This document shows positions 52,944-59,084 of a stretch of DNA of 64,000 nt, one piece after another. The stretch's first letter is position 1; each line of letters begins with the position of its first letter. The notes beneath the pieces are model-generated. The model searched no databases and was not told the DNA's origin. It saw nothing but the letters and a program-made list of their open reading frames with translations. Source of the stretch: Escherichia coli (lineage in GTDB: Bacteria; Pseudomonadota; Gammaproteobacteria; Enterobacterales; Enterobacteriaceae); NCBI RefSeq assembly GCF_016903815.1, contig NZ_CP069973.1. The stretch is one strand, 5' to 3'. The position numbers and the translations under genes were made by a program.

Positions 52944-53366
52944 ATGGCAAAAGTATTTACACCAGAAGAGCGGGAAAAAATTAAAGGGCAGGTTGTTGAA
53001 CTTGTACGTCTGAGCGGTCGCGAGACGTTACGGGCTCTGGAGGCTAAAACCGGTGCATCAAGGTATTACATAAGCACTCTCGCCAGAGAACTGGTCGCCA
53101 GTGGTGATGTTTACAATTCAGGCTACGGATTATTCCCGTCTGAGCAGGCGCGTAAAGACTGGCAAAACGCCCGCAAAAAACTATCGAGGGCAAAGGTGAA
53201 GAAACCTGCTGTAGTTGATCCGGACCTTATCTGGTCATTACCAGACGGAGAAATACGCCGCTATGACAGGCGTCTGAATATAATCTGTCGCGAGTGCCGG
53301 AAGAGCGAAGTCATGCAGCGTGTACTGGCGTTCTATCAGGGTAATTTTCAGGATGTGCTGTTGTGA
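52944..53366 (+). CDS. Hypothetical phage protein (possible wHTH)
   Basis: 140 aa from the ATG with a GGAGG SD 5 nt upstream: MAKVFTPEEREKIKGQVVELVRLSGRETLRALEAKTGASRYYISTLAREL.. Confidence 0.65.
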   Translation: MAKVFTPEEREKIKGQVVELVRLSGRETLRALEAKTGASRYYISTLARELVASGDVYNSGYGLFPSEQARKDWQNARKKLSRAKVKKPAVVDPDLIWSLPDGEIRRYDRRLNIICRECRKSEVMQRVLAFYQGNFQDVLL

Positions 53367-53527
53367 GCCAAATTAACAATCAGGGAACTGCGTGAACTGA
53401 AAGAGAAATCATAATCCAAATCTGAATAATTAAATTTAGCACTGTAAATAAAATTTAATCCTTAACCGGAGGGGGGGGCTGCACCCTCAAAATATTAGGA
53501 GGCGGCCCGAAAGGGCGGTAATGAAAA

Positions 53528-54031
53528 ATGACTGAATTAACCAAAAAGCAATTAATCGAAGAAGCTAAATTAAAAATAGCGATTGAGAAATGCCACCCCA
53601 ATTCAGGGATGGCACGGGTAGAGGGCGAATTATTCAAAATTGCTCTGGCATCGCTGGAAGCAGAGCCAGTTGGTGATTTTTATGAATACAAACCGGATGA
53701 CTGGTATCAGCGTTCGGCTGGAGATAAAGCGCCAAAATGGACGCCACCCTATGCCGTTTTTCCAGCGCCCGTAGTGCCGGAAGAAATGGATTTGCTTACA
53801 TGCCATCTCGATGGTGTAACTGAAACATATGCTGAGGGATGGAACGCTTGCCGCGCTGCCCTGCTTCAGGGCAAAGGGGAGCCCGGGAAACAAGTTCGCG
53901 AATTGACAATGCTGGTTAAACAATTGGTTAGTCAACTGAAGAAACCGAAACCGGGCTGCAAATTGCCGGATAAAGTGATGGACTACCTGGAGCGAAGCGG
54001 ACTTATAAGCGTGGAGGATGTTTTACGATGA
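53528..54031 (+). CDS. Hypothetical phage protein (ead/Ea22-like region protein)
   Basis: 167 aa. The motif ..AEGWNACRAALLQ.. is one I associate with ead/Ea22-type lambdoid accessory proteins. That family assignment is unverified. Confidence 0.6.
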   Translation: MTELTKKQLIEEAKLKIAIEKCHPNSGMARVEGELFKIALASLEAEPVGDFYEYKPDDWYQRSAGDKAPKWTPPYAVFPAPVVPEEMDLLTCHLDGVTETYAEGWNACRAALLQGKGEPGKQVRELTMLVKQLVSQLKKPKPGCKLPDKVMDYLERSGLISVEDVLR

Positions 54032-54111
54032 CCTGGCCTGAAGCATTCACAACGGTAGGAATTGCGATGGCGGTGGCGCTGGTGGTGTATTCGATTTGCC
54101 GCTGGGGTTGA
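54028..54111 (+). CDS. Candidate 27-aa single-TM peptide, translationally coupled
   Basis: Its ATG overlaps the upstream stop (ATGA). Translation is MTWPEAFTTVGIAMAVALVVYSICRWG. A hairpin at 54125-54143 follows. Confidence 0.4.
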   Translation: MTWPEAFTTVGIAMAVALVVYSICRWG

Positions 54112-54124
54112 TAATACTAAATAA

Positions 54125-54143
54125 CCAGCCCTTATGGGGCTGG
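54125..54143. terminator. Hairpin between the convergent rightward operon and the KilA-N gene
   Basis: ccagccc-ttatg-gggctgg. Confidence 0.5.
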
Positions 54144-54151
54144 CTAATCAT

Positions 54152-54925
54152 TTAGAACTGTTCATTGCCATCGAGGTTAGGTAGCATAATTTTTTCAATC
54201 AAGGCGAGAGCCTTTTTGTCCCGGTCAGCGAAGTATTTCGGGGCATATTGCGGCAACCAAATATTGTTAAAATGTTCTTTGAAATCTGCTAAATATTCAT
54301 TTGGGTACAGCCTTGCAGGGTATACGCGACCATCGGGATATTCATGGTCATAGGTAGGGAATGTTTTGGGTTCTACGTTTCTATTATCTCTTAACCATTG
54401 TGAAAATACTCTTCCTTGTGAAATGTCAGGAACCATTTTTTCTGGGAGTGTGTACCCTGCTTGTTCAAGAGGTGCAACCAAGTTGAATGTCAGTTCATTA
54501 AGAATAGAAAAGTGCGTGTGAGGAATTCTACTACGATTAACCATGTACCGTTTTAAATGTACAGGCATTTCTGCTGTAGTTCTTTCCCCTGACATCCATT
54601 CACGAACCCATCTTGAAACCTGGACTGCAAATTTGGGCGATAGCCACTGCGCTAGATTAATAGCGATGTCAGGATGCACCCATGTCCCTTGGTTTTCAGG
54701 TCTTCCACCTTTAAATGATTGAATTAACTCCGATATGGGAATTCCCATATCGCGTGATAATTCGTCAAAAAACTCTTGAGTAGTTTTGAGTCTAGTGTAA
54801 TCAGAGAGCAGTTTGCCCGCAGTTCTACACATTGATGTGGCGTTTATGTAACCATCTTTGGCACGTAAATGTATTATTTCGCCGTCAATTTCACGAGAAA
54901 TCAAAGATAATTGAAAGGATGTCAT
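54152..54925 (-). CDS. KilA-N domain-containing protein
   Basis: 257 aa. The N-terminal KilA-N/APSES-like region is IHLRAKDGYINATSMCRTAGKLLSDYTRLKTTQEFFDELS...GTWVHPDIAINLAQWLSPKFAVQVSRWV. It is oriented against the surrounding operon. Confidence 0.8.
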   Translation of the reverse strand: MTSFQLSLISREIDGEIIHLRAKDGYINATSMCRTAGKLLSDYTRLKTTQEFFDELSRDMGIPISELIQSFKGGRPENQGTWVHPDIAINLAQWLSPKFAVQVSRWVREWMSGERTTAEMPVHLKRYMVNRSRIPHTHFSILNELTFNLVAPLEQAGYTLPEKMVPDISQGRVFSQWLRDNRNVEPKTFPTYDHEYPDGRVYPARLYPNEYLADFKEHFNNIWLPQYAPKYFADRDKKALALIEKIMLPNLDGNEQF

Positions 54926-55447
54926 TGAAAATTCCTCAAGTTGGAGAGTTCTGGAACATTAAGGCGAGGTGGCAGTAATGCACCATCTGTAATCTTTTGA
55001 TACTGACGTAATCGGGCCTGATGTGCAACGCCTTGCAAGTATGTAACTCATTGAAAACGATCATTTTTATCTATTGACATCAAATGGCAAACTGTCATTG
55101 TGCGGCTATGGCAAGTGGCAAATGCTTATAAATCATATGGATATAAATAGTACAGAAAGAGTTGTTTTCTCTAGGATATGAGTATACGCCCAATGCTGAT
55201 TGGTTGAATTTTGTTCTTGTTTTAAAGGGTAAGAGTTTAAAGTGTTGGCAGTGATGTATTGGATAGTTAGAATTGCTGTGGGTGCTTGAGGCTATCTGCC
55301 TCGGGCATGAACACCAAAGGTAGATAGAGAAAAGCCCCAGTTAACATTACGCGTCCTGCAAGACGTTTAACATTAATCTGAGGCCATATCTATGCGACAC
55401 ATAGAGATTAGCCTCTTACGGACCGAAAGGTCAAGGAGAAGCAGGCT

Positions 55448-55573
55448 ATGAAGCAGCAAAAGGCGATGTTAATCGCCCTGATCGTCATCTGTTTAACCGT
55501 CATAGTGACGGCACTGGTAACGAGGAAAGACCTCTGCGAGGTACGAATCCGAACTGGCAGACGGAGGCTCTGA
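55448..55573 (+). pseudogene. hok-family type I toxin gene, divergent/truncated at the 3' end (41 codons)
   Basis: MKQQKAMLIALIVICLTVIVTALVTRKDLCEVRIRTG is identical to my memory of HokD/RelF. It then reads RRRL-stop instead of QTEVAVFTAYEPEE. The upstream leader (gcttgaggctatctgcctc..., gattagcctcttac..aaggagaag) resembles hok/sok leaders. Confidence 0.75.
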
Positions 55574-55655
55574 TTCGTAGACTACTAATCTGAGTAAAAG
55601 ACCCAGCGGGGAAAGAACCACGCCGGGACTAGTTAATAAGATATTTATAGCGTGG

Positions 55656-55997
55656 CTATTCTTTTTTTGCGGTATAGACTTTTTCGCCTGAGAAGTCTGG
55701 AGCTACCCAAAAGTTAATATTAAACTGAGCATCATCGCTTAGTTCAACACGGTGCCAGTATTGTGGTGGGCTTGTTGCAAAAGCGCCAGCATTAATGACT
55801 ACTTTTATCTCCGGTTCAGTAGCATTCTCATCAGCAAAACCATAATATGTTACAGTACCTTCCATCACGCATAACTGTCCAAAAACACCTGCTGCTGTAT
55901 TATGATGTGTTAATAACGCTGAAGGTACGTTCTCTTTTGTGAAGAACGGAGTTGAGCGTTTGATTACCCAGTCTTTAGGAATTCTCTTGTGTGTCAT
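55656..55997 (-). CDS. DUF1971 / YeaR-like (TehB-related) protein
   Basis: 113 aa from MTHKRIPKDWVIKRSTPFFTKENVPSALLTHHNT... It is alignable by eye to E. coli YeaR (..HTRSTPFWNK..YLGYADE..EP..FNIDFFVAP..). Confidence 0.7.
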   Translation of the reverse strand: MTHKRIPKDWVIKRSTPFFTKENVPSALLTHHNTAAGVFGQLCVMEGTVTYYGFADENATEPEIKVVINAGAFATSPPQYWHRVELSDDAQFNINFWVAPDFSGEKVYTAKKE

Positions 55998-56864
55998 AAC
56001 CACCTCCCATAAAACATGCATTATAAATGCACCTTTTTGAGGGTTATGTCAAGCTGTTATGAAACACATAATTGATATGTTGATTAGAGGAGAAGATAGA
56101 ATCAATATGGTTGTTTTTCGTATAACTATTTGTTTTACTTTTAGTTTGTGCATTCTGTGTGTTAGGAATAACTTATTAAAGTTTAACTAAAAAATCTCGA
56201 TATAGTCCGCATAGATTACTGTTACTGAATCTTATTGTGTGCATTAGTTGTGTTCTGAAATTTCAATTTAATTACTTATGATATATTTTTAACGATAAAT
56301 GTTTTCCGGGTTAAAGACAGTGGGGGATGAGATAAGCAATATATCATTAATCTTGATTATTTCCAGGATGCCTTTACTGTGCATATAAATAAATCATATA
56401 CGCATCAAATAATGTAAAGGCATCCTTTTAGATATATCTTATCAAATGTTAATGATTTGAGTGGGAAACATGATTCCAGAAACTAATCATGCGGCTACTT
56501 TATAAAAATAATGCCCATATAAAACAGCCAGCGAAAAGGATTACGGATAAAAAAGGAGCGAGATGTGCATAGTTGTTATTTTCCATGTTTAACCACCTTA
56601 AATAATTGATGATGACGGGATGTGCATCTGTAATGCTTTTGTTGAAATGTTATGATAAAAAAGAACTTTTTCATAACATTAAAATGTAATTTATCTAATC
56701 GTTTTTAATAATAAGTGTTGTATTTCTATCCTTGTATCAGCTATTTGATATGTAGTGTTTGTTCATGTTATGTGGAGCTTTACACCATAGCCAGTTTATT
56801 TATACTTTATTCGTCAGCCTGAACAACTGGCATCTGCTGCACTGCGCCATCGAGAGATTGAGAA

Positions 56865-57464
56865 ATGGCGCATATACAACTGGTCAAACAAACCTCTTCT
56901 GGACTACTTCTCCCGGCGACGCCGGAGAGTTGCGATTTTTTGCATCAAATCAAAATAGGCGAGTGGATACACGCAGACTTTAAGCGTGTGCGTAACTACG
57001 CATTCCACAAGCGTTTTTTCAAACTCCTGCAACTGGGATTCGATTACTGGACTCCGGTCGGTGGGGCGATCACGCCTCGCGAACGAAAGCTGGTTTCAGG
57101 ATTCGTTGATTACCTATGTGAATCAGTAGGCCGGGAACATACGCCAGCTCTGAGCGAAGCCGCAGAGCAATATCTGAATACAGTTGCGACACGCAGAACC
57201 CGGGATACGGCATTGCTAAAGTCGTTTGAGGCTTTCCGCGAGTGGGTAACCATTCAGGCCGGATTTTACACCGAGCATCTTTATCCTGATGGTAGCCATG
57301 GGCGTCGGGCGAAATCCATCGCTTTTGCGAATATGGACGAAACCGAGTTTCAGCAGGTTTATAAATCTGTTCTGAATGTGCTGTGGAACTGGATTCTGTT
57401 CCGTAAATTTTCCTCTCCGGAACAAGTCGAAAATGTGACCGCGCAGCTGCTGGAGTTTGCGTAA
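56865..57464 (+). CDS. DUF1367-family nin-region protein
   Basis: 199 aa, immediately upstream of and coupled to the YbcO-like gene. The family call is from memory of lambdoid nin regions. Confidence 0.65.
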   Translation: MAHIQLVKQTSSGLLLPATPESCDFLHQIKIGEWIHADFKRVRNYAFHKRFFKLLQLGFDYWTPVGGAITPRERKLVSGFVDYLCESVGREHTPALSEAAEQYLNTVATRRTRDTALLKSFEAFREWVTIQAGFYTEHLYPDGSHGRRAKSIAFANMDETEFQQVYKSVLNVLWNWILFRKFSSPEQVENVTAQLLEFA

Positions 57465-57754
57465 TGGTGGATTTACGTAAAGCGGCGCGGGGGCAGATGT
57501 GCACCGTCAGAATTCCTGGCTACTGCAATCACGATCCGGAAACGTCTGTGCTGGCGCATTACCGACTGGCGGGAACGTGCGGAACAGCGACAAAACCACA
57601 CGATATGCAGGCGGCGATTGCCTGTAGCTCATGCCACGATCTAATCGACGGGCGGGTAAAAACCAGCGATTACACCAAAGAAGAATTACGCCTGATGCAT
57701 GCAGAAGGTGTTTTTCGCACACAAGAAATCTGGAGAAAGGAGGGATATTTGTGA
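57464..57754 (+). CDS. YbcO-like (DUF1364) putative nuclease
   Basis: 96 aa, MVDLRKAARGQMCTVRIPGYCNHDPETSVLAHYRLAGTCGTATKPHDMQAAIACSSCHDLIDGR.. It is clearly homologous to DLP12 YbcO as I remember it. Confidence 0.8.
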   Translation: MVDLRKAARGQMCTVRIPGYCNHDPETSVLAHYRLAGTCGTATKPHDMQAAIACSSCHDLIDGRVKTSDYTKEELRLMHAEGVFRTQEIWRKEGYL

Positions 57755-58293
57755 TTTACCCAACGAATACAGGAAAAAGCGGAGAACACCTTCGTCTCGC
57801 CACGCTGGAAAGTGTCTGGATTCAGGGCAAACTGCGTATGTGGGGGCGCTGGTCGTATATTGGCGGTGGCAGGTCAGGAAATATGTTCAATCAGTTGTTG
57901 GCATCCAAAAAATTGACGAAAACAGCCATCAATGAAGCCCTGCGCAGAATGAAAAAAGCGGGAATAGAGAAAGCTGAGCTGGAAGCGTTTTTGCGAGAGA
58001 TGATCAACGGCAAGCAAAAGAGCTGGCTGGCGCATTGTACTGATGCAGAGGCGTTATGTATTGATCGAGTCATAAGTGAGGTGCTGGCAGAGCATCCTGG
58101 ATTGATTAGTGTCCTCCGGCAACGGTATGAAGGACGGGGGATGACTAAGCGCAAAATGGCTGAATTGCTAAATGATGCACATCCTGAGTGGTGTTTTAGC
58201 ACATGCGAAAAGCGAATTGCTAATTGGTTGGCTGTTGCTGAGTATGCCCTATATATTCCCATGCGAGAATCATTTGCTCAAAAAATAGCTTGA
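57751..58293 (+). CDS. Putative late-gene antiterminator (Q-like, DUF1133-type)
   Basis: GTG start overlapping the upstream stop (GTGA), with an AAGGAGGG SD. 180 aa. It lies directly before a promoter + terminator unit and the lysis cassette. Confidence 0.65.
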   Translation: MIYPTNTGKSGEHLRLATLESVWIQGKLRMWGRWSYIGGGRSGNMFNQLLASKKLTKTAINEALRRMKKAGIEKAELEAFLREMINGKQKSWLAHCTDAEALCIDRVISEVLAEHPGLISVLRQRYEGRGMTKRKMAELLNDAHPEWCFSTCEKRIANWLAVAEYALYIPMRESFAQKIA

Positions 58294-58318
58294 TTTTTTA
58301 CGCATAAACTGCTTCAAT
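58290..58318 (+). promoter_or_regulatory. Candidate late promoter (PR'-like)
   Basis: TTGATT-17 nt-TTCAAT, overlapping the Q-like stop codon. A -10-like TATGCT lies at 58324-58329, where lambdoid sigma-dependent pause elements sit. Confidence 0.45.
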
Positions 58319-58377
58319 TCCGGTATGCTTCGCAAAGCTGTATCGCGAGGCGAACCAAGCGCATGAACTTTACCAGA

Positions 58378-58405
58378 ACCCGCCATTGAGCGGGTTTTGT
58401 TGTTT
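58378..58405 (+). terminator. Rho-independent terminator (tR'-like)
   Basis: acccgc-cattga-gcgggt followed by tttgttgttt. Confidence 0.7.
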
Positions 58406-58477
58406 CTGGTACTGGTGAACCTGATGTTTCATTTCTGGAGCGCGATTCCTGGCGGAATACCTAGAATCGAGACATTC

Positions 58478-58486
58478 TGGTAAAAT
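58478..58486 (+). promoter_or_regulatory. Extended -10 promoter element for the moron gene
   Basis: TGgTAAAAT, 29 bp upstream of the ATG at 58515. There is no good -35. Confidence 0.4.
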
Positions 58487-58514
58487 TGTTTTCAGTACAG
58501 GATGTGGAGGTGAG

Positions 58515-59084
58515 ATGAGAGAACTACCTAAAGATTATTTTTTAGGAGTAGATGATGAGCTCGTCGATTATCTTGAAAAACAAGGGGAAGAGACGATACG
58601 AGAGATTCATCTTTCTAACAAAACCAATGTTGAGAATGGATACAAACTTCTGAACATTCAGATTGTTGGAATTGGTTCATCTTTTTTATTGCTGACACAG
58701 AAAACTAATTTCGATTTTCTCACCGCCGGAATTACCACATTTACATTACTATGGACATGGTGCGCCATTTACTTGGTATGTACTGGTTTATCTGTGAAGG
58801 TTAGGGGCCTGATCAATGCCCCTCCTGATCATCTATATCATGAAAAATATAAGGATATGGAGCCCTCGAGCTTTAAAATATTCGCTGATGCAGGATATTT
58901 AGGACCTGATAAGTTATTGCCGCTTATACGAAGGTATCGCCTTGTTGACTTGAGTGATACAGCAAGAGAGTTACTGTTGGAAAATGAGAAAATCCGCACG
59001 AGTCTCGATAAAGCAAGGATGTATACCATCCTTGCTCCGGTAGCGGCGATGTTTATCTCGGCTGTTTTTTTATATGTTCAATGA
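58515..59084 (+). CDS. Uncharacterised 189-aa membrane protein (3 predicted TM helices), a moron in the Q-holin gap
   Basis: GGAGG SD 5 nt upstream. Hydrophobic segments are LLNIQIVGIGSSFLLLT, ITTFTLLWTWCAIYLVCTGL and MYTILAPVAAMFISAVFLYV. AT-rich codon usage. I recognise no family. Confidence 0.7.
   Translation: MRELPKDYFLGVDDELVDYLEKQGEETIREIHLSNKTNVENGYKLLNIQIVGIGSSFLLLTQKTNFDFLTAGITTFTLLWTWCAIYLVCTGLSVKVRGLINAPPDHLYHEKYKDMEPSSFKIFADAGYLGPDKLLPLIRRYRLVDLSDTARELLLENEKIRTSLDKARMYTILAPVAAMFISAVFLYVQ

What the first reader, a model, noticed from the sequence alone, without database searches (positions are those of the whole stretch)
55656..56864. YeaR-like (DUF1971) moron followed by an 0.8-kb AT-rich ORF-poor tract with two long hairpins and small hydrophobic ORFs
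A reverse-oriented DUF1971/YeaR-like gene sits between the hok remnant and the nin-type genes. In E. coli, yeaR is nitrate/NO-responsive and TehB-related. The gene is followed by about 840 bp of very AT-rich DNA with no ORF of 60 aa or more.

The tract contains:
- a 12-bp perfect inverted repeat, ggatgcctttac...gtaaaggcatcc (56366-56425), followed by TTTT on the plus strand;
- a near-perfect 33-bp palindrome, atgttatga-N15-tcataacat (56647-56679);
- a 28-codon ORF on the minus strand (56586-56500, MENNNYAHLAPFLSVILFAGCFIWALFL) with an AAGGTGG SD 7 nt upstream;
- a 43-codon plus-strand ORF (56059-56190, MKHIIDMLIRGEDRINMVVFRITICFTFSLCILCVRNNLLKFN) with a weak SD.

Short hydrophobic peptides next to long hairpins are the signature of type I toxin-antitoxin or small membrane-protein loci. 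The tract could also be H-NS-silenced regulatory DNA.
Basis: partly seen in the sequence, partly recalled or inferred. Interest (0 to 1): 0.55.

Follow-up and report, generated by a model that had tools for sequence, protein, structure and literature searches.

The report
NO-responsive prophage moron plus unannotated 28-codon gene
This stretch of a Rac-like E. coli prophage joins two units: an inserted cargo gene that is probably switched on by nitric oxide, and an older prophage segment with an unannotated 28-codon membrane-peptide ORF found in about a fifth of complete E. coli genomes.

Summary
The features are all at the stated coordinates, but the tract is two units joined at 56498/56499.

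**Unit 1, about 55598-56498: a moron.**
- It holds a DUF1971 gene with its own terminator. The protein is 44% identical to E. coli YeaR but about 80% identical to a Salmonella/Klebsiella/Vibrio subfamily.
- A near-consensus NsrR operator (26 bits; next best in 64 kb is 13.8) overlaps the predicted promoter. Orthologues in four other loci carry the same kind of site.
- About 440 bp of AT-rich DNA follows, with no detectable constraint, ending in hairpin 1.
- The 43-codon ORF here shows no purifying selection (4 synonymous, 14 non-synonymous changes; variable stop).

**Unit 2, 56499-56864: prophage backbone.**
- The part holding the small ORF is present in 1177 of 5426 complete E. coli genomes, with or without the moron.
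- The 28-codon minus-strand ORF keeps its ATG, stop, length and Shine-Dalgarno sequence in all 127 complete copies examined. All its replacements are hydrophobic or small.
- It is unannotated in every record shown and absent from a 15-billion-protein collection.
- Hairpin 2 lies in the ORF's likely leader.

A type I toxin-antitoxin role is possible but unsupported: no convincing antisense RNA, no structured leader, no homology to a known toxin. Overall this is a new member of known kinds, of moderate interest.

The parts
55280..55450 (+). Intact sok antisense-RNA/hok leader region. Context only, not part of the tract.
   Evidence: Rfam RF01794 at 101.5 bits, E = 6.8e-23, full-length match.
55448..55597 (+). 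hok pseudogene. It has a 1-nt deletion near 55558 and a decayed 3' part, and the old stop codon GAGTAA is still recognisable.
   Evidence: Alignment with intact hokD of L005 and of K-12 Qin. The open frame now ends at 55573, giving 41 aa.
55598..55630 (-). Predicted intrinsic terminator of the DUF1971 gene and left end of the moron. It is partly built from the old hok 3'-UTR hairpin.
   Evidence: On the minus strand a stem of seven pairs (one of them a G.U pair) is followed by UCUUUU. Fold energy is -21.9 kcal/mol, z = -3.9. The segment travels with the gene in L002, L003 and L007, where the left neighbours differ.
55656..55997 (-). DUF1971 protein of 113 aa. It is an orthologue of the dsbB-linked (Salmonella, Klebsiella) and norVW-linked (Vibrio) subfamily, not of E. 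coli YeaR.
   Evidence: PF09313 at E = 3e-26. 44% identity to K-12 YeaR. 75-81% identity to Salmonella, Klebsiella, Vibrio and Aliivibrio proteins, with their gene contexts. Close solved homologue: PDB 3DL3.
56013..56035 (.). Predicted NsrR operator, an 11-1-11 inverted repeat: AACATGCATTATAAATGCACCTT.
   Evidence: 26.0 bits on a weight matrix built from 27 published CFT073 NsrR sites (PMC5320621, Table 4). The next best site in the 64-kb window scores 13.8, and 0 of 2000 shuffles of the tract reach 26. It is conserved in L002, L003 and L007, and equivalent sites lie before the orthologues in Salmonella (25.5 bits), Klebsiella (29.7 bits) and metagenome loci L159 and L160.
56020..56052 (-). 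Predicted promoter of the DUF1971 gene. The -35 hexamer TTGACA is at 56047-56052. After a 17-bp spacer comes CATTTA at 56024-56029, inside the NsrR site. A perfect TATAAT at 56020-56025 lies 21 bp from the -35 hexamer.
   Evidence: Read directly from the sequence. L159 and L160 have the same geometry: TTTACA, 17 bp, then TATTTT inside the NsrR site. Klebsiella has TTGACG, 17 bp, then CATATT. This is inferred, not measured.
56059..56190 (+). 43-codon ORF. Probably not a gene.
   Evidence: Across 18 distinct variants there are 4 synonymous and 14 non-synonymous events, close to the share of about one in five expected without selection. The stop moves, giving 43, 48, 51 or 73 codons. One phage record calls it a hypothetical protein.
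56090..56364 (.). AT-rich spacer of the moron with no detectable constraint. It includes a stretch of about 57 bp (roughly 56304-56360) that is deleted in many variants.
   Evidence: Variable sites are spread evenly, no reading frame shows a coding signal, and L002 and L007 carry the deletion.
56365..56426 (+). Hairpin 1, a 62-nt stem-loop followed by TTTT. It is probably a rightward terminator or insulator at the right edge of the moron.
   Evidence: 13-bp perfect arms. z = -5.0 on the + strand and -6.1 on the - strand. The L002 class keeps the hairpin with a different, perfect inner stem, z = -6.4. The U-run is on the + strand only. The terminator role is inferred from position: the arrangements without the moron (L004, L005, L006) have a canonical rightward terminator at the same place.
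56499..56499 (.). Junction between moron and backbone. Homology to prophages without the moron starts here, 1 nt outside the stop codon of the small ORF.
   Evidence: blastn hits cover query positions 478-843 of 56022-56864. Alignment A1.
56500..56586 (-). Conserved, unannotated 28-codon ORF, MENNNYAHLAPFLSVILFAGCFIWALFL. It has a polar N-terminal octapeptide followed by a 20-residue hydrophobic segment.
   Evidence: All 127 complete copies reached through a non-coding anchor keep ATG, 28 codons and TAA, in 17 distinct coding sequences. The ORF has no indels, while both flanks do. Pairwise dN/dS is 0.08-0.50. All 13 replacements in the hydrophobic part stay hydrophobic or small, P = 0.024 under neutrality. 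The region is in 1177 of 5426 complete E. coli genomes, with no annotated feature in any row shown. It is absent from Pfam, NCBIfam and PHROGs and from a 15-billion-protein collection.
56593..56599 (-). Shine-Dalgarno sequence AAGGTGG, 6 nt before the ATG of the small ORF.
   Evidence: Read from the sequence. It is kept as AAGGTGG, AAGGTGAG or AAAGTGAG in the other clades.
56646..56680 (-). Hairpin 2, in the probable 5' leader of the small-ORF transcript. The 8-bp stem is ATGTTATG / CATAACAT around a 17-nt spacer.
   Evidence: Stem and spacer length are conserved between the two clades, but the spacer sequence is unrelated. In clade B, 30 of 38 distinct sequences have a G.U pair if read on the minus strand, which would be an A.C mismatch on the plus strand. 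Paired cells: 303 of 304 (minus) against 274 of 304 (plus). This is a weak indication of strand.
56668..56716 (.). Highly conserved non-coding block A. It contains an invariant TATTAT on the minus strand (56708-56713), a candidate -10 element for the small ORF.
   Evidence: Conservation profile of 0.89-0.98. The promoter-like match scores only 8 of 12 but sits at the same place in all five loci scanned. Low confidence.
56779..56831 (+). Conserved rightward sigma-70-type promoter for the nin/Q-type genes: TTTACA, 16 bp, then TATACT at 56801-56806. It is bracketed by a 7-bp inverted repeat, GCCAGTT (56790-56796) and AACTGGC (56825-56831).
   Evidence: 10 of 12 consensus matches in the window, L004 and L006. 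Identical in all six loci of alignment A1, including L005, where the downstream gene is different.

Best explanation
The interval is a mosaic of two independent units in a Rac-like lambdoid prophage.

**Unit 1, about 55598-56498: a moron inserted leftward at the hok 3' end.**
- It carries a DUF1971 protein whose chromosomal orthologue in Salmonella lies in the order nhaB-dsbB-DUF1971. From memory that gene is STM1808, a member of the NsrR regulon.
- An 11-1-11 NsrR palindrome covers the -10 region of its promoter.
- Inferred mechanism: in a lysogen, NsrR holding its iron-sulfur cluster sits on the operator and blocks RNA polymerase. Nitric oxide nitrosylates the cluster, NsrR leaves, and the gene is transcribed and stops at its own terminator.
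- E. coli does not appear to have this paralogue at the dsbB locus (from memory, not checked here), so the prophage would add an NO-inducible nitrosative-stress gene.
- The roughly 440 bp upstream show no detectable constraint. They end in a long hairpin plus U4, which probably replaces the rightward terminator that lies at this spot in the arrangements without the moron.

**Unit 2, 56499-56864: prophage backbone.**
- It lies at the border between a variable cargo region and the nin/Q genes.
- It encodes, leftward and so antisense to the lytic early-right operon, a 28-residue peptide. The polar head is MENNK/N and the rest is a single hydrophobic helix that should insert into the inner membrane.
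- Its leader contains hairpin 2.
- A strongly conserved rightward promoter for the nin genes follows.

**What is shown and what is inferred.**
- Shown: the mosaic structure, the family assignment, the operator match and its conservation, and the conservation of the ORF.
- Inferred: NsrR binding and NO induction, translation and membrane insertion of the peptide, the terminator role of hairpin 1, and both small-ORF promoters.
For: **Mosaic structure.**
- Homology to prophages without the moron starts at 56499 and runs to the DUF1367 gene.
- The DUF1971 unit always lies directly left of it, while its own left neighbours vary: hok remnant, QueH, SIR2, a hypothetical protein.
- Among 130 copies of the small ORF, the left context is hok in 65, the DUF1971 moron in 30 and something else in 35.

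**DUF1971 unit.**
- Pfam hit. 44% identity to YeaR against about 80% to the Salmonella/Klebsiella/Vibrio subfamily.
- In Vibrio and Aliivibrio the orthologue follows norV-norW directly.
- The NsrR matrix gives 26.0 bits; the next best in the window is 13.8 and 0 of 2000 shuffles reach it.
- Equivalent sites lie before the orthologues at 25.5 and 29.7 bits, the only strong sites in 5 kb, and in L159 and L160 with the same -35/17-bp geometry.
- STM1808 is listed as an NsrR-regulon gene with a role in virulence in PMC7527575, which cites Karlinsey 2012.
- The terminator folds with z = -3.9.

**Small ORF.**
- 127 of 127 complete copies are intact, in 17 distinct coding sequences. The Shine-Dalgarno sequence is kept.
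- There are no indels in the ORF, but there are in its flanks.
- dN/dS is below 0.5 in all pairs.
- Hydrophobicity is preserved, P = 0.024.
- It is present in 1177 of 5426 genomes.

**Hairpin 1.** Stable in all variants.
Against: - There are no expression data of any kind.
- The excess of synonymous changes in the small ORF (12 of 31 events, against 20% expected) is only slightly better than in two other frames (10 and 11 of 31), so the substitution test does not single out the frame.
- Conservation of its start region could partly reflect a plus-strand promoter-like element that overlaps it.
- No good promoter was found for the small ORF. The best match is 8 of 12, in AT-rich DNA where such matches are expected by chance.
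- In the DUF1971 promoter, the hexamer at the proper 17-bp spacing is poor (CATTTA), and the perfect TATAAT is 21 bp from the -35 hexamer.
- Hairpin 1 has only four U residues and a long internal loop, and the terminator scan did not call it. Its stem changes between variants are not compensatory.
- That the Salmonella locus is STM1808 rests on gene order and my memory, not on a tool result.
Confidence: 0.6

Rival explanations
1. Type I toxin-antitoxin locus. The 28-residue peptide is a membrane toxin. A cis-antisense RNA is transcribed rightward from a promoter overlapping the ORF start (TTTCCA 56580-56585, 15 bp, AATAAT 56601-56606), runs through hairpin 2 and ends near block A. It pairs with the toxin leader, with the palindromic hairpin 2 giving a loop-loop contact.
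For: - The peptide is short and hydrophobic, with a strong Shine-Dalgarno sequence.
- A 9-of-12 plus-strand promoter-like site sits at the same position in both clades although the -10 hexamer differs: AATAAT, TATGAT or CATAAT.
- In clade B a terminator-like hairpin with a T-rich tail lies about 110 nt downstream.
- The ORF is oriented against the lytic operon and, in the commonest arrangement, sits next to hok/sok.
Against: - There is no homology to any known toxin family and no Rfam RNA in the tract.
- Neither the predicted leader nor the putative antisense RNA folds better than shuffles, with z from -2.0 to +0.2, and the Shine-Dalgarno sequence is not clearly sequestered.
- Promoter-like matches are at chance frequency in this AT-rich DNA (5 found, 6.1 expected).
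- The clade-A version of the putative terminator is very weak.
- The wobble pairs in hairpin 2 favour the minus strand, which is the mRNA, not the antisense RNA.
- Toxicity is untested.
Confidence: 0.15
2. The 28-codon ORF is not translated. The conserved 56499-56720 segment works as RNA or DNA: a leftward or rightward small RNA, a promoter or operator, or a terminator region of the prophage. The open frame is then incidental.
For: - Non-coding block A is as conserved as the ORF.
- Two other frames over the same 87 nt are also free of stops in the consensus, and they show similar counts of synonymous-type changes.
- The ORF start overlaps a promoter-like site.
- The peptide has never been annotated.
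Against: - ATG, stop, exact length and the Shine-Dalgarno sequence at the correct spacing are kept in 127 of 127 copies across about 25% DNA divergence.
- The mosaic breakpoint respects the stop codon in all the left contexts examined.
- Amino-acid replacements keep a 20-residue hydrophobic helix.
- The overlapping plus-strand frame has no conserved start.
- No RNA structure over the ORF stands out.
Confidence: 0.2
3. The whole AT-rich tract is mainly H-NS-silenced foreign DNA. The hairpins and small ORFs are by-products of low-complexity AT-rich sequence.
For: - GC is 30.8% over 843 bp against 48.2% for the window.
- The 56090-56364 part shows no detectable constraint, and the 43-codon ORF shows no selection.
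- Hairpin 2 alone is within chance.
Against: - This does not explain the 26-bit NsrR site and its conservation in orthologues.
- It does not explain the conservation of the 28-codon ORF.
- It does not explain the 13-bp perfect inverted repeat, reached by 2 of 300 shuffles.
- It does not explain blocks A and B, which are nearly invariant.
- H-NS binding is compatible with the best explanation rather than an alternative to it.
Confidence: 0.05

Closest known systems
Salmonella STM1808-type DUF1971 proteins (NsrR regulon) and their Vibrio orthologues downstream of norVW
   Same: - About 80% protein identity.
- The same 11-1-11 NsrR palindrome immediately upstream, overlapping the promoter.
- The same size, 111-114 aa.
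- Close solved homologue: PDB 3DL3.
   Different: - Here the gene is carried on a prophage as a moron with its own terminator, in E. coli, which as far as I recall lacks the chromosomal copy at dsbB.
- The operator ends 15 nt before the start codon, against 26-28 nt in the chromosomal copies.
- That the Salmonella locus is STM1808 is from memory.
E. coli yeaR-yoaG operon
   Same: - DUF1971 fold family.
- NsrR-type operator in the promoter (23.7 bits in K-12).
- Nitrate/NO-responsive according to PMC5320621.
   Different: - Only 44% identity.
- No yoaG partner.
- A NarL site was not examined.
Lambdoid-phage morons (for example lambda bor and lom, and the HK97 morons); general concept recalled from the literature
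   Same: - An autonomous promoter-gene-terminator unit.
- Lower GC than its surroundings.
- Present or absent among otherwise collinear prophages.
- Oriented against the lytic operon.
   Different: - Its regulation is tied to a host stress repressor (NsrR).
- It carries about 440 bp of extra DNA, with no detectable constraint, that ends in a long hairpin.
Type I toxins and small membrane proteins of E. coli (Hok, Ibs, ShoB, TisB, ZorO; YohP-like small proteins); recalled from the literature
   Same: - 28 residues.
- One hydrophobic helix running to the C-terminus.
- A good Shine-Dalgarno sequence.
- In half the copies it lies next to a hok/sok locus.
   Different: - No sequence similarity to any of them.
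- No demonstrated antisense RNA.
- One copy per prophage.
- Found only in Escherichia and Shigella prophages with the pattern used.

Membership tests
DUF1971 / TehB-N-terminal-like (Pfam PF09313) | Match to the family HMM above the gathering score | tested here: met
   91.6 bits against a cut-off of 23.1, E = 3e-26, covering model positions 1-80 of 80. PDB relatives are 3DL3, 3BB6 and 3M70.
YeaR orthologue (E. coli yeaR-yoaG) | High identity to YeaR and a downstream yoaG gene | tested here: not met
   44% identity over 101 residues. No yoaG: the decayed hok gene lies downstream. The closest relatives belong to a different subfamily at about 80% identity.
NsrR regulon | An 11-1-11 inverted repeat matching the NsrR weight matrix in the promoter region | tested here: met
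   26.0 bits, higher than every one of the 27 published sites except ytfE. The site lies 15 nt before the start codon.
NsrR regulon | The site is conserved upstream of orthologous genes in other species | tested here: met
   Salmonella 25.5 bits and Klebsiella 29.7 bits. L159 and L160 carry AAGATGTATTTTAAATGCATGTT and AAGATGTATTTTAAATGCATCTT. The site is absent in Vibrio, where the gene follows norVW.
NsrR regulon | NsrR binds the site, and the gene is derepressed by NO or in an nsrR mutant | not testable with these tools
   This needs EMSA or ChIP, and qRT-PCR in a lysogen.
Moron | A self-contained promoter-gene-terminator unit that is present or absent between conserved flanks of related prophages and has a different base composition | tested here: met
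   Presence or absence next to the same backbone module. Predicted promoter and terminator. GC is 30-41% against 48% for the window. Promoter and terminator activity were not measured.
Type I toxin-antitoxin system | A small hydrophobic peptide gene with a ribosome-binding site | tested here: met
   28 codons, AAGGTGG, and mean hydropathy of 2.2-2.5 over residues 9-28.
Type I toxin-antitoxin system | An antisense RNA gene complementary to the toxin mRNA | tested here: inconclusive
   Only a 9-of-12 plus-strand promoter-like site, conserved in position, and a weak terminator-like hairpin. No Rfam family. Folds are no better than shuffles.
Type I toxin-antitoxin system | The peptide is toxic when overexpressed, and the RNA neutralises it | not testable with these tools
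   This needs expression experiments.
Intrinsic (Rho-independent) terminator (hairpin 1) | A stable GC-containing stem directly followed by a U-run | tested here: inconclusive
   The stem is stable, at -22.7 kcal/mol with z = -5.0. It is followed by only four U residues and has a 36-nt interior, and the consensus scan did not call it.

The most novel reading that the evidence does not exclude
The 28-codon ORF and a cis-antisense RNA through hairpin 2 form a previously undescribed type I toxin-antitoxin (or small membrane-effector) family. It would be a fixed part of the backbone of Rac-like prophages, marking the border of their cargo and defence hot-spot, and present in about 22% of complete E. 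coli genomes without ever having been annotated.
Probability: 0.15. Interest if true: 0.6.

Novelty: new member of a known kind. Interest (0 to 1): 0.42.

Why it matters
- **Prophage-borne NO-stress gene.** If NsrR control is real, about 460 of 5426 sequenced E. coli strains carry an extra, NO-inducible nitrosative-stress gene on a prophage. Its Salmonella counterpart has been linked to virulence (PMC7527575, citing Karlinsey 2012). That would be lysogenic conversion wired into a host stress regulon.
- **Unannotated small ORF.** The 28-codon ORF is conserved in about 22% of complete E. coli genomes, yet gene callers miss it and it is absent from a 15-billion-protein collection. It is a clean, testable candidate for a new prophage small membrane protein.
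- **Annotation landmark.** The ORF sits at a fixed border next to a variable region that holds hok/sok, IteAS, SIR2, QueH and other cargo. That makes it a useful landmark for annotating this hot-spot.

Tried and rejected
- **Arms of hairpin 1 as NsrR half-sites.** They look like AAGATGCATTT by eye but score only 3.95 bits, against 15.3 for the ytfE half-site. Rejected.
- **The 43-codon ORF as a gene.** It shows neutral substitution and a variable stop. Rejected.
- **A longer two-helix ancestor of that ORF.** The fused 73-codon form occurs in only 1 of 18 distinct variants (L007). The downstream frame has 7 synonymous and 6 non-synonymous events, not significant after testing six frames. Not supported.
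- **Lipoprotein reading of the peptide.** FAGC in the window looks like a lipobox, and there is a weak PHROG match to an Rz-like spanin (E = 0.009). Other variants have VLCC, VFCC, ACCF or VSCC, which do not fit a lipobox. Rejected.
- **Known small protein of K-12.** K-12 Qin has rem in this position and lacks the ORF.
- **Known RNA family.** Nothing in 53000-59000 except sok at E up to 1.
- **Global consensus folding of the leader.** Both strands give about the same energy (-20.9 and -20.5), with doubtful long-range pairs. A small hairpin just 5' of the Shine-Dalgarno sequence shows mixed, strand-ambiguous variation.
- **Distant homologues.** A degenerate codon pattern over 185,579 species genomes found only Shigella flexneri and Escherichia ruysiae, plus one chance hit.
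- **Literature.** No paper contains the peptide motif. Searches for DUF1971 or yeaR together with prophage found nothing describing such a gene on a prophage. Karlinsey 2012 could not be opened.
Full report
**1. Where we are.**
- The window matches at 100% a prophage of E. coli strain 7/2. This prophage carries ydaT, ydaV, DUF1627 and DUF977 genes, a lambda-type lysis cassette and trkG, so it is a Rac-like lambdoid prophage.
- The local gene order is as follows:
  - KilA-N gene (54152-54925, minus strand)
  - sok/hok
  - DUF1971 gene (minus strand)
  - the AT-rich tract
  - DUF1367, DUF1364 and DUF1133 genes (nin/Q-type)
- Three induced-phage records carry the identical 1.3 kb.

**2.
- The tract has 30.8% GC, against 48.2% for the window.
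- Hairpin 1 is beyond chance. Only 2 of 300 shuffles reach a 13-bp perfect inverted repeat, and folding z-scores are -5.0 and -6.1.
- Hairpin 2 alone is not beyond chance.

**3. The tract is two units.**
- A sensitive DNA search of 56022-56864 against 5426 complete E. coli genomes gave 462 genomes covering at least 80% of it. A larger group matched only query positions 478-843, at 73-77% identity.
- Query position 478 is window position 56499, 1 nt outside the stop codon of the 28-codon ORF.
- In those genomes the segment lies directly after an intact hok gene (L004, L005) or after the anti-phage gene iteS (L006), with no DUF1971 gene. It lies directly before either DUF1367 or a different nin-type gene.
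- Conversely, the unit of DUF1971 gene plus about 500 bp upstream always sits directly left of this segment, while its own left neighbours vary.
- So 56499-56864 is prophage backbone, and about 55598-56498 is an insertion. The insertion replaced the distal hok 3' UTR and its terminator. What is left of hok is a decayed pseudogene.

**4. The inserted gene and its control.**
- The protein is a DUF1971 domain protein.
- It is only 44% identical to E. coli YeaR. It is 75-81% identical to a subfamily found in Salmonella, Klebsiella, Raoultella, Vibrio, Aliivibrio and others.
- In Salmonella and Klebsiella that gene lies after nhaB-dsbB. In Aliivibrio and V. parahaemolyticus it follows the NO-reductase genes norV-norW, with a hemerythrin-domain gene nearby in the latter.
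- I built a weight matrix from the 27 NsrR sites in Table 4 of PMC5320621 and scanned the window.
  - 56013-56035 (AACATGCATTATAAATGCACCTT) scores 26.0 bits.
  - The next best site in 64 kb scores 13.8.
  - None of 2000 shuffles of the tract reaches 26.
- The site is kept in the other prophage variants at 20.6-25.6 bits. Equivalent palindromes are the only strong sites in the 5-kb Salmonella (25.5 bits) and Klebsiella (29.7 bits) loci, ending 26-28 nt before the start codon.
- Two orthologues at 82-83% identity from metagenomes carry the same kind of site. A -35 hexamer lies 17 bp before a hexamer inside it.
- The window has the same geometry: TTGACA at 56047-56052, 17 bp, then CATTTA.
- It is established knowledge that NsrR is an NO-sensitive repressor that binds 11-1-11 repeats in target promoters (PMC5320621).
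- The Salmonella gene in this position is, from my memory of the locus numbering, STM1808. PMC7527575, citing Karlinsey 2012, lists it as an NsrR-regulon gene with a role in virulence. I could not open the primary paper.
- A minus-strand hairpin followed by UCUUUU at 55598-55630 is the likely terminator.

**5. The rest of the insertion.**
- Across 18 distinct variants, variable sites are spread evenly over 56090-56498 and no frame shows a coding signal.
- The 43-codon ORF keeps its start. However, it has 4 synonymous and 14 non-synonymous events, and its stop falls at 43, 48, 51 or 73 codons.
- A block of about 57 bp is deleted in many variants.
- Hairpin 1 survives in all variants, with different details. 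The L002 class has a mismatch and a G.U pair in the outer stem but a perfect 10-bp inner stem, z = -6.4.
- Only the plus strand has a U-run after the hairpin.
- In the arrangements without the moron (L004, L005, L006), a canonical rightward terminator lies 15-25 nt from the small-ORF stop. After iteS it is bidirectional.
- I therefore read hairpin 1 as the functional replacement for that terminator. This is an inference from position, held at about 0.4.

**6. The 28-codon ORF.**
- To avoid selecting for the ORF itself, I fetched loci through the non-coding promoter block on its right.
  - Of 132 loci, 127 had a complete copy, and all 127 had ATG, 28 codons and TAA.
  - The other five were two IS insertions and three contig ends.
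- There are 17 distinct coding sequences and 14 peptide variants.
- The Shine-Dalgarno sequence is kept as AAGGTGG, AAGGTGAG or AAAGTGAG.
- The ORF has no indels, while both flanks do.
- Pairwise dN/dS is 0.08-0.50.
- Synonymous events are 12 of 31 against 20% expected. Two other frames give 10 and 11, so this test is weak.
- All 13 replacement events in residues 9-28 stay hydrophobic or small, while 25% of random changes would give a charged or polar residue, proline or a stop (P = 0.024).
- The ORF region is in 1177 of 5426 complete genomes, with no feature annotated under the match in any row shown.
- The peptide has no Pfam, NCBIfam or PHROG family. It is absent in six variants from a 15-billion-protein collection. 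No paper in the library contains its core motif.
- K-12 lacks it. Outside E. coli, the codon pattern found it only in Shigella flexneri and E. ruysiae.
- I rate it a real translated gene at about 0.65.

**7. Around the small ORF.**
- Hairpin 2 keeps an 8-bp stem and a 17-nt spacer in both clades, although the spacer sequences are unrelated.
- Its two variable pairs are G.U on the minus strand and A.C on the plus strand. This weakly favours a minus-strand RNA, meaning the leader of the small ORF.
- Block A (56668-56716) is almost invariant. It holds a minus-strand TATTAT that could be the -10 element, which would give a leader of about 114 nt.
- A plus-strand promoter-like site overlapping the ORF start is conserved in position. 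It would give a cis-antisense RNA, which is the one piece of evidence for a type I toxin-antitoxin reading.
- Both promoter calls are 8-9 of 12 matches in DNA where such matches occur at chance frequency. Neither RNA folds better than shuffles.

**8. Verdict.**
- The best-supported picture has two parts:
  - an NsrR-controlled, STM1808-type DUF1971 moron
  - a backbone module with a conserved, unannotated 28-codon gene for a membrane peptide, next to the nin promoter
- Both are new members of known kinds. The type I toxin-antitoxin reading remains open at about 0.15.

Noticed in passing
window 56779-56831: A rightward promoter (TTTACA, 16 bp, TATACT) is identical in all six aligned loci, even where the downstream gene differs. 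It is bracketed by an invariant 7-bp inverted repeat, GCCAGTT-N28-AACTGGC, that spans the -10 element and the start region. This could be an operator.
   Followed up: partly
window 55280-55597: The sok RNA and the hok 5' part are intact and identical to those of functional hokD loci. The hok coding region carries a 1-nt deletion and a decayed 3' end, so this is an antitoxin RNA gene left beside a dead toxin gene.
   Followed up: partly
L002 166-3239; L003 2721-3389; L004 1-2594; L006 1-2947: The region directly left of the small-ORF module is a cargo hot-spot. In different prophages it holds a SIR2-family deacylase gene, QueH, a cytosine methyltransferase plus an ATP-dependent nuclease, or the anti-phage pair IteA/IteS.
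   Followed up: no
L159 205-232; L160 141-168: The two closest non-prophage orthologues have a Fur-box-like palindrome, GATAATGAGATTTATTATC, just upstream of the -35 hexamer, in addition to the NsrR site. The prophage copy has no obvious counterpart.
   Followed up: no
window 56059-56088: This 30-nt stretch, just upstream of the -35 hexamer of the DUF1971 promoter, has no variable site among 18 distinct variants, although the tract varies elsewhere. It contains the direct repeat TTGATATG / TTGATTAG and could be an activator site.
   Followed up: no
L157 1-2845; L155 1-2836: In V. parahaemolyticus the DUF1971 orthologue starts 40 bp after norW and has no NsrR-type site. In Aliivibrio an 830-bp gap separates it from norW. 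Regulation of this subfamily therefore differs between genera.
   Followed up: partly
L134 and L147 (IMG/VR loci): In two loci an IS element with a transposase gene has replaced everything left of about window position 56745, including the small ORF. These were the only disrupted copies seen.
   Followed up: no
window 56759-56983: A 74-aa TTG-initiated plus-strand ORF overlaps the promoter block and the start of the DUF1367 gene in another frame. It is probably spurious.
   Followed up: no
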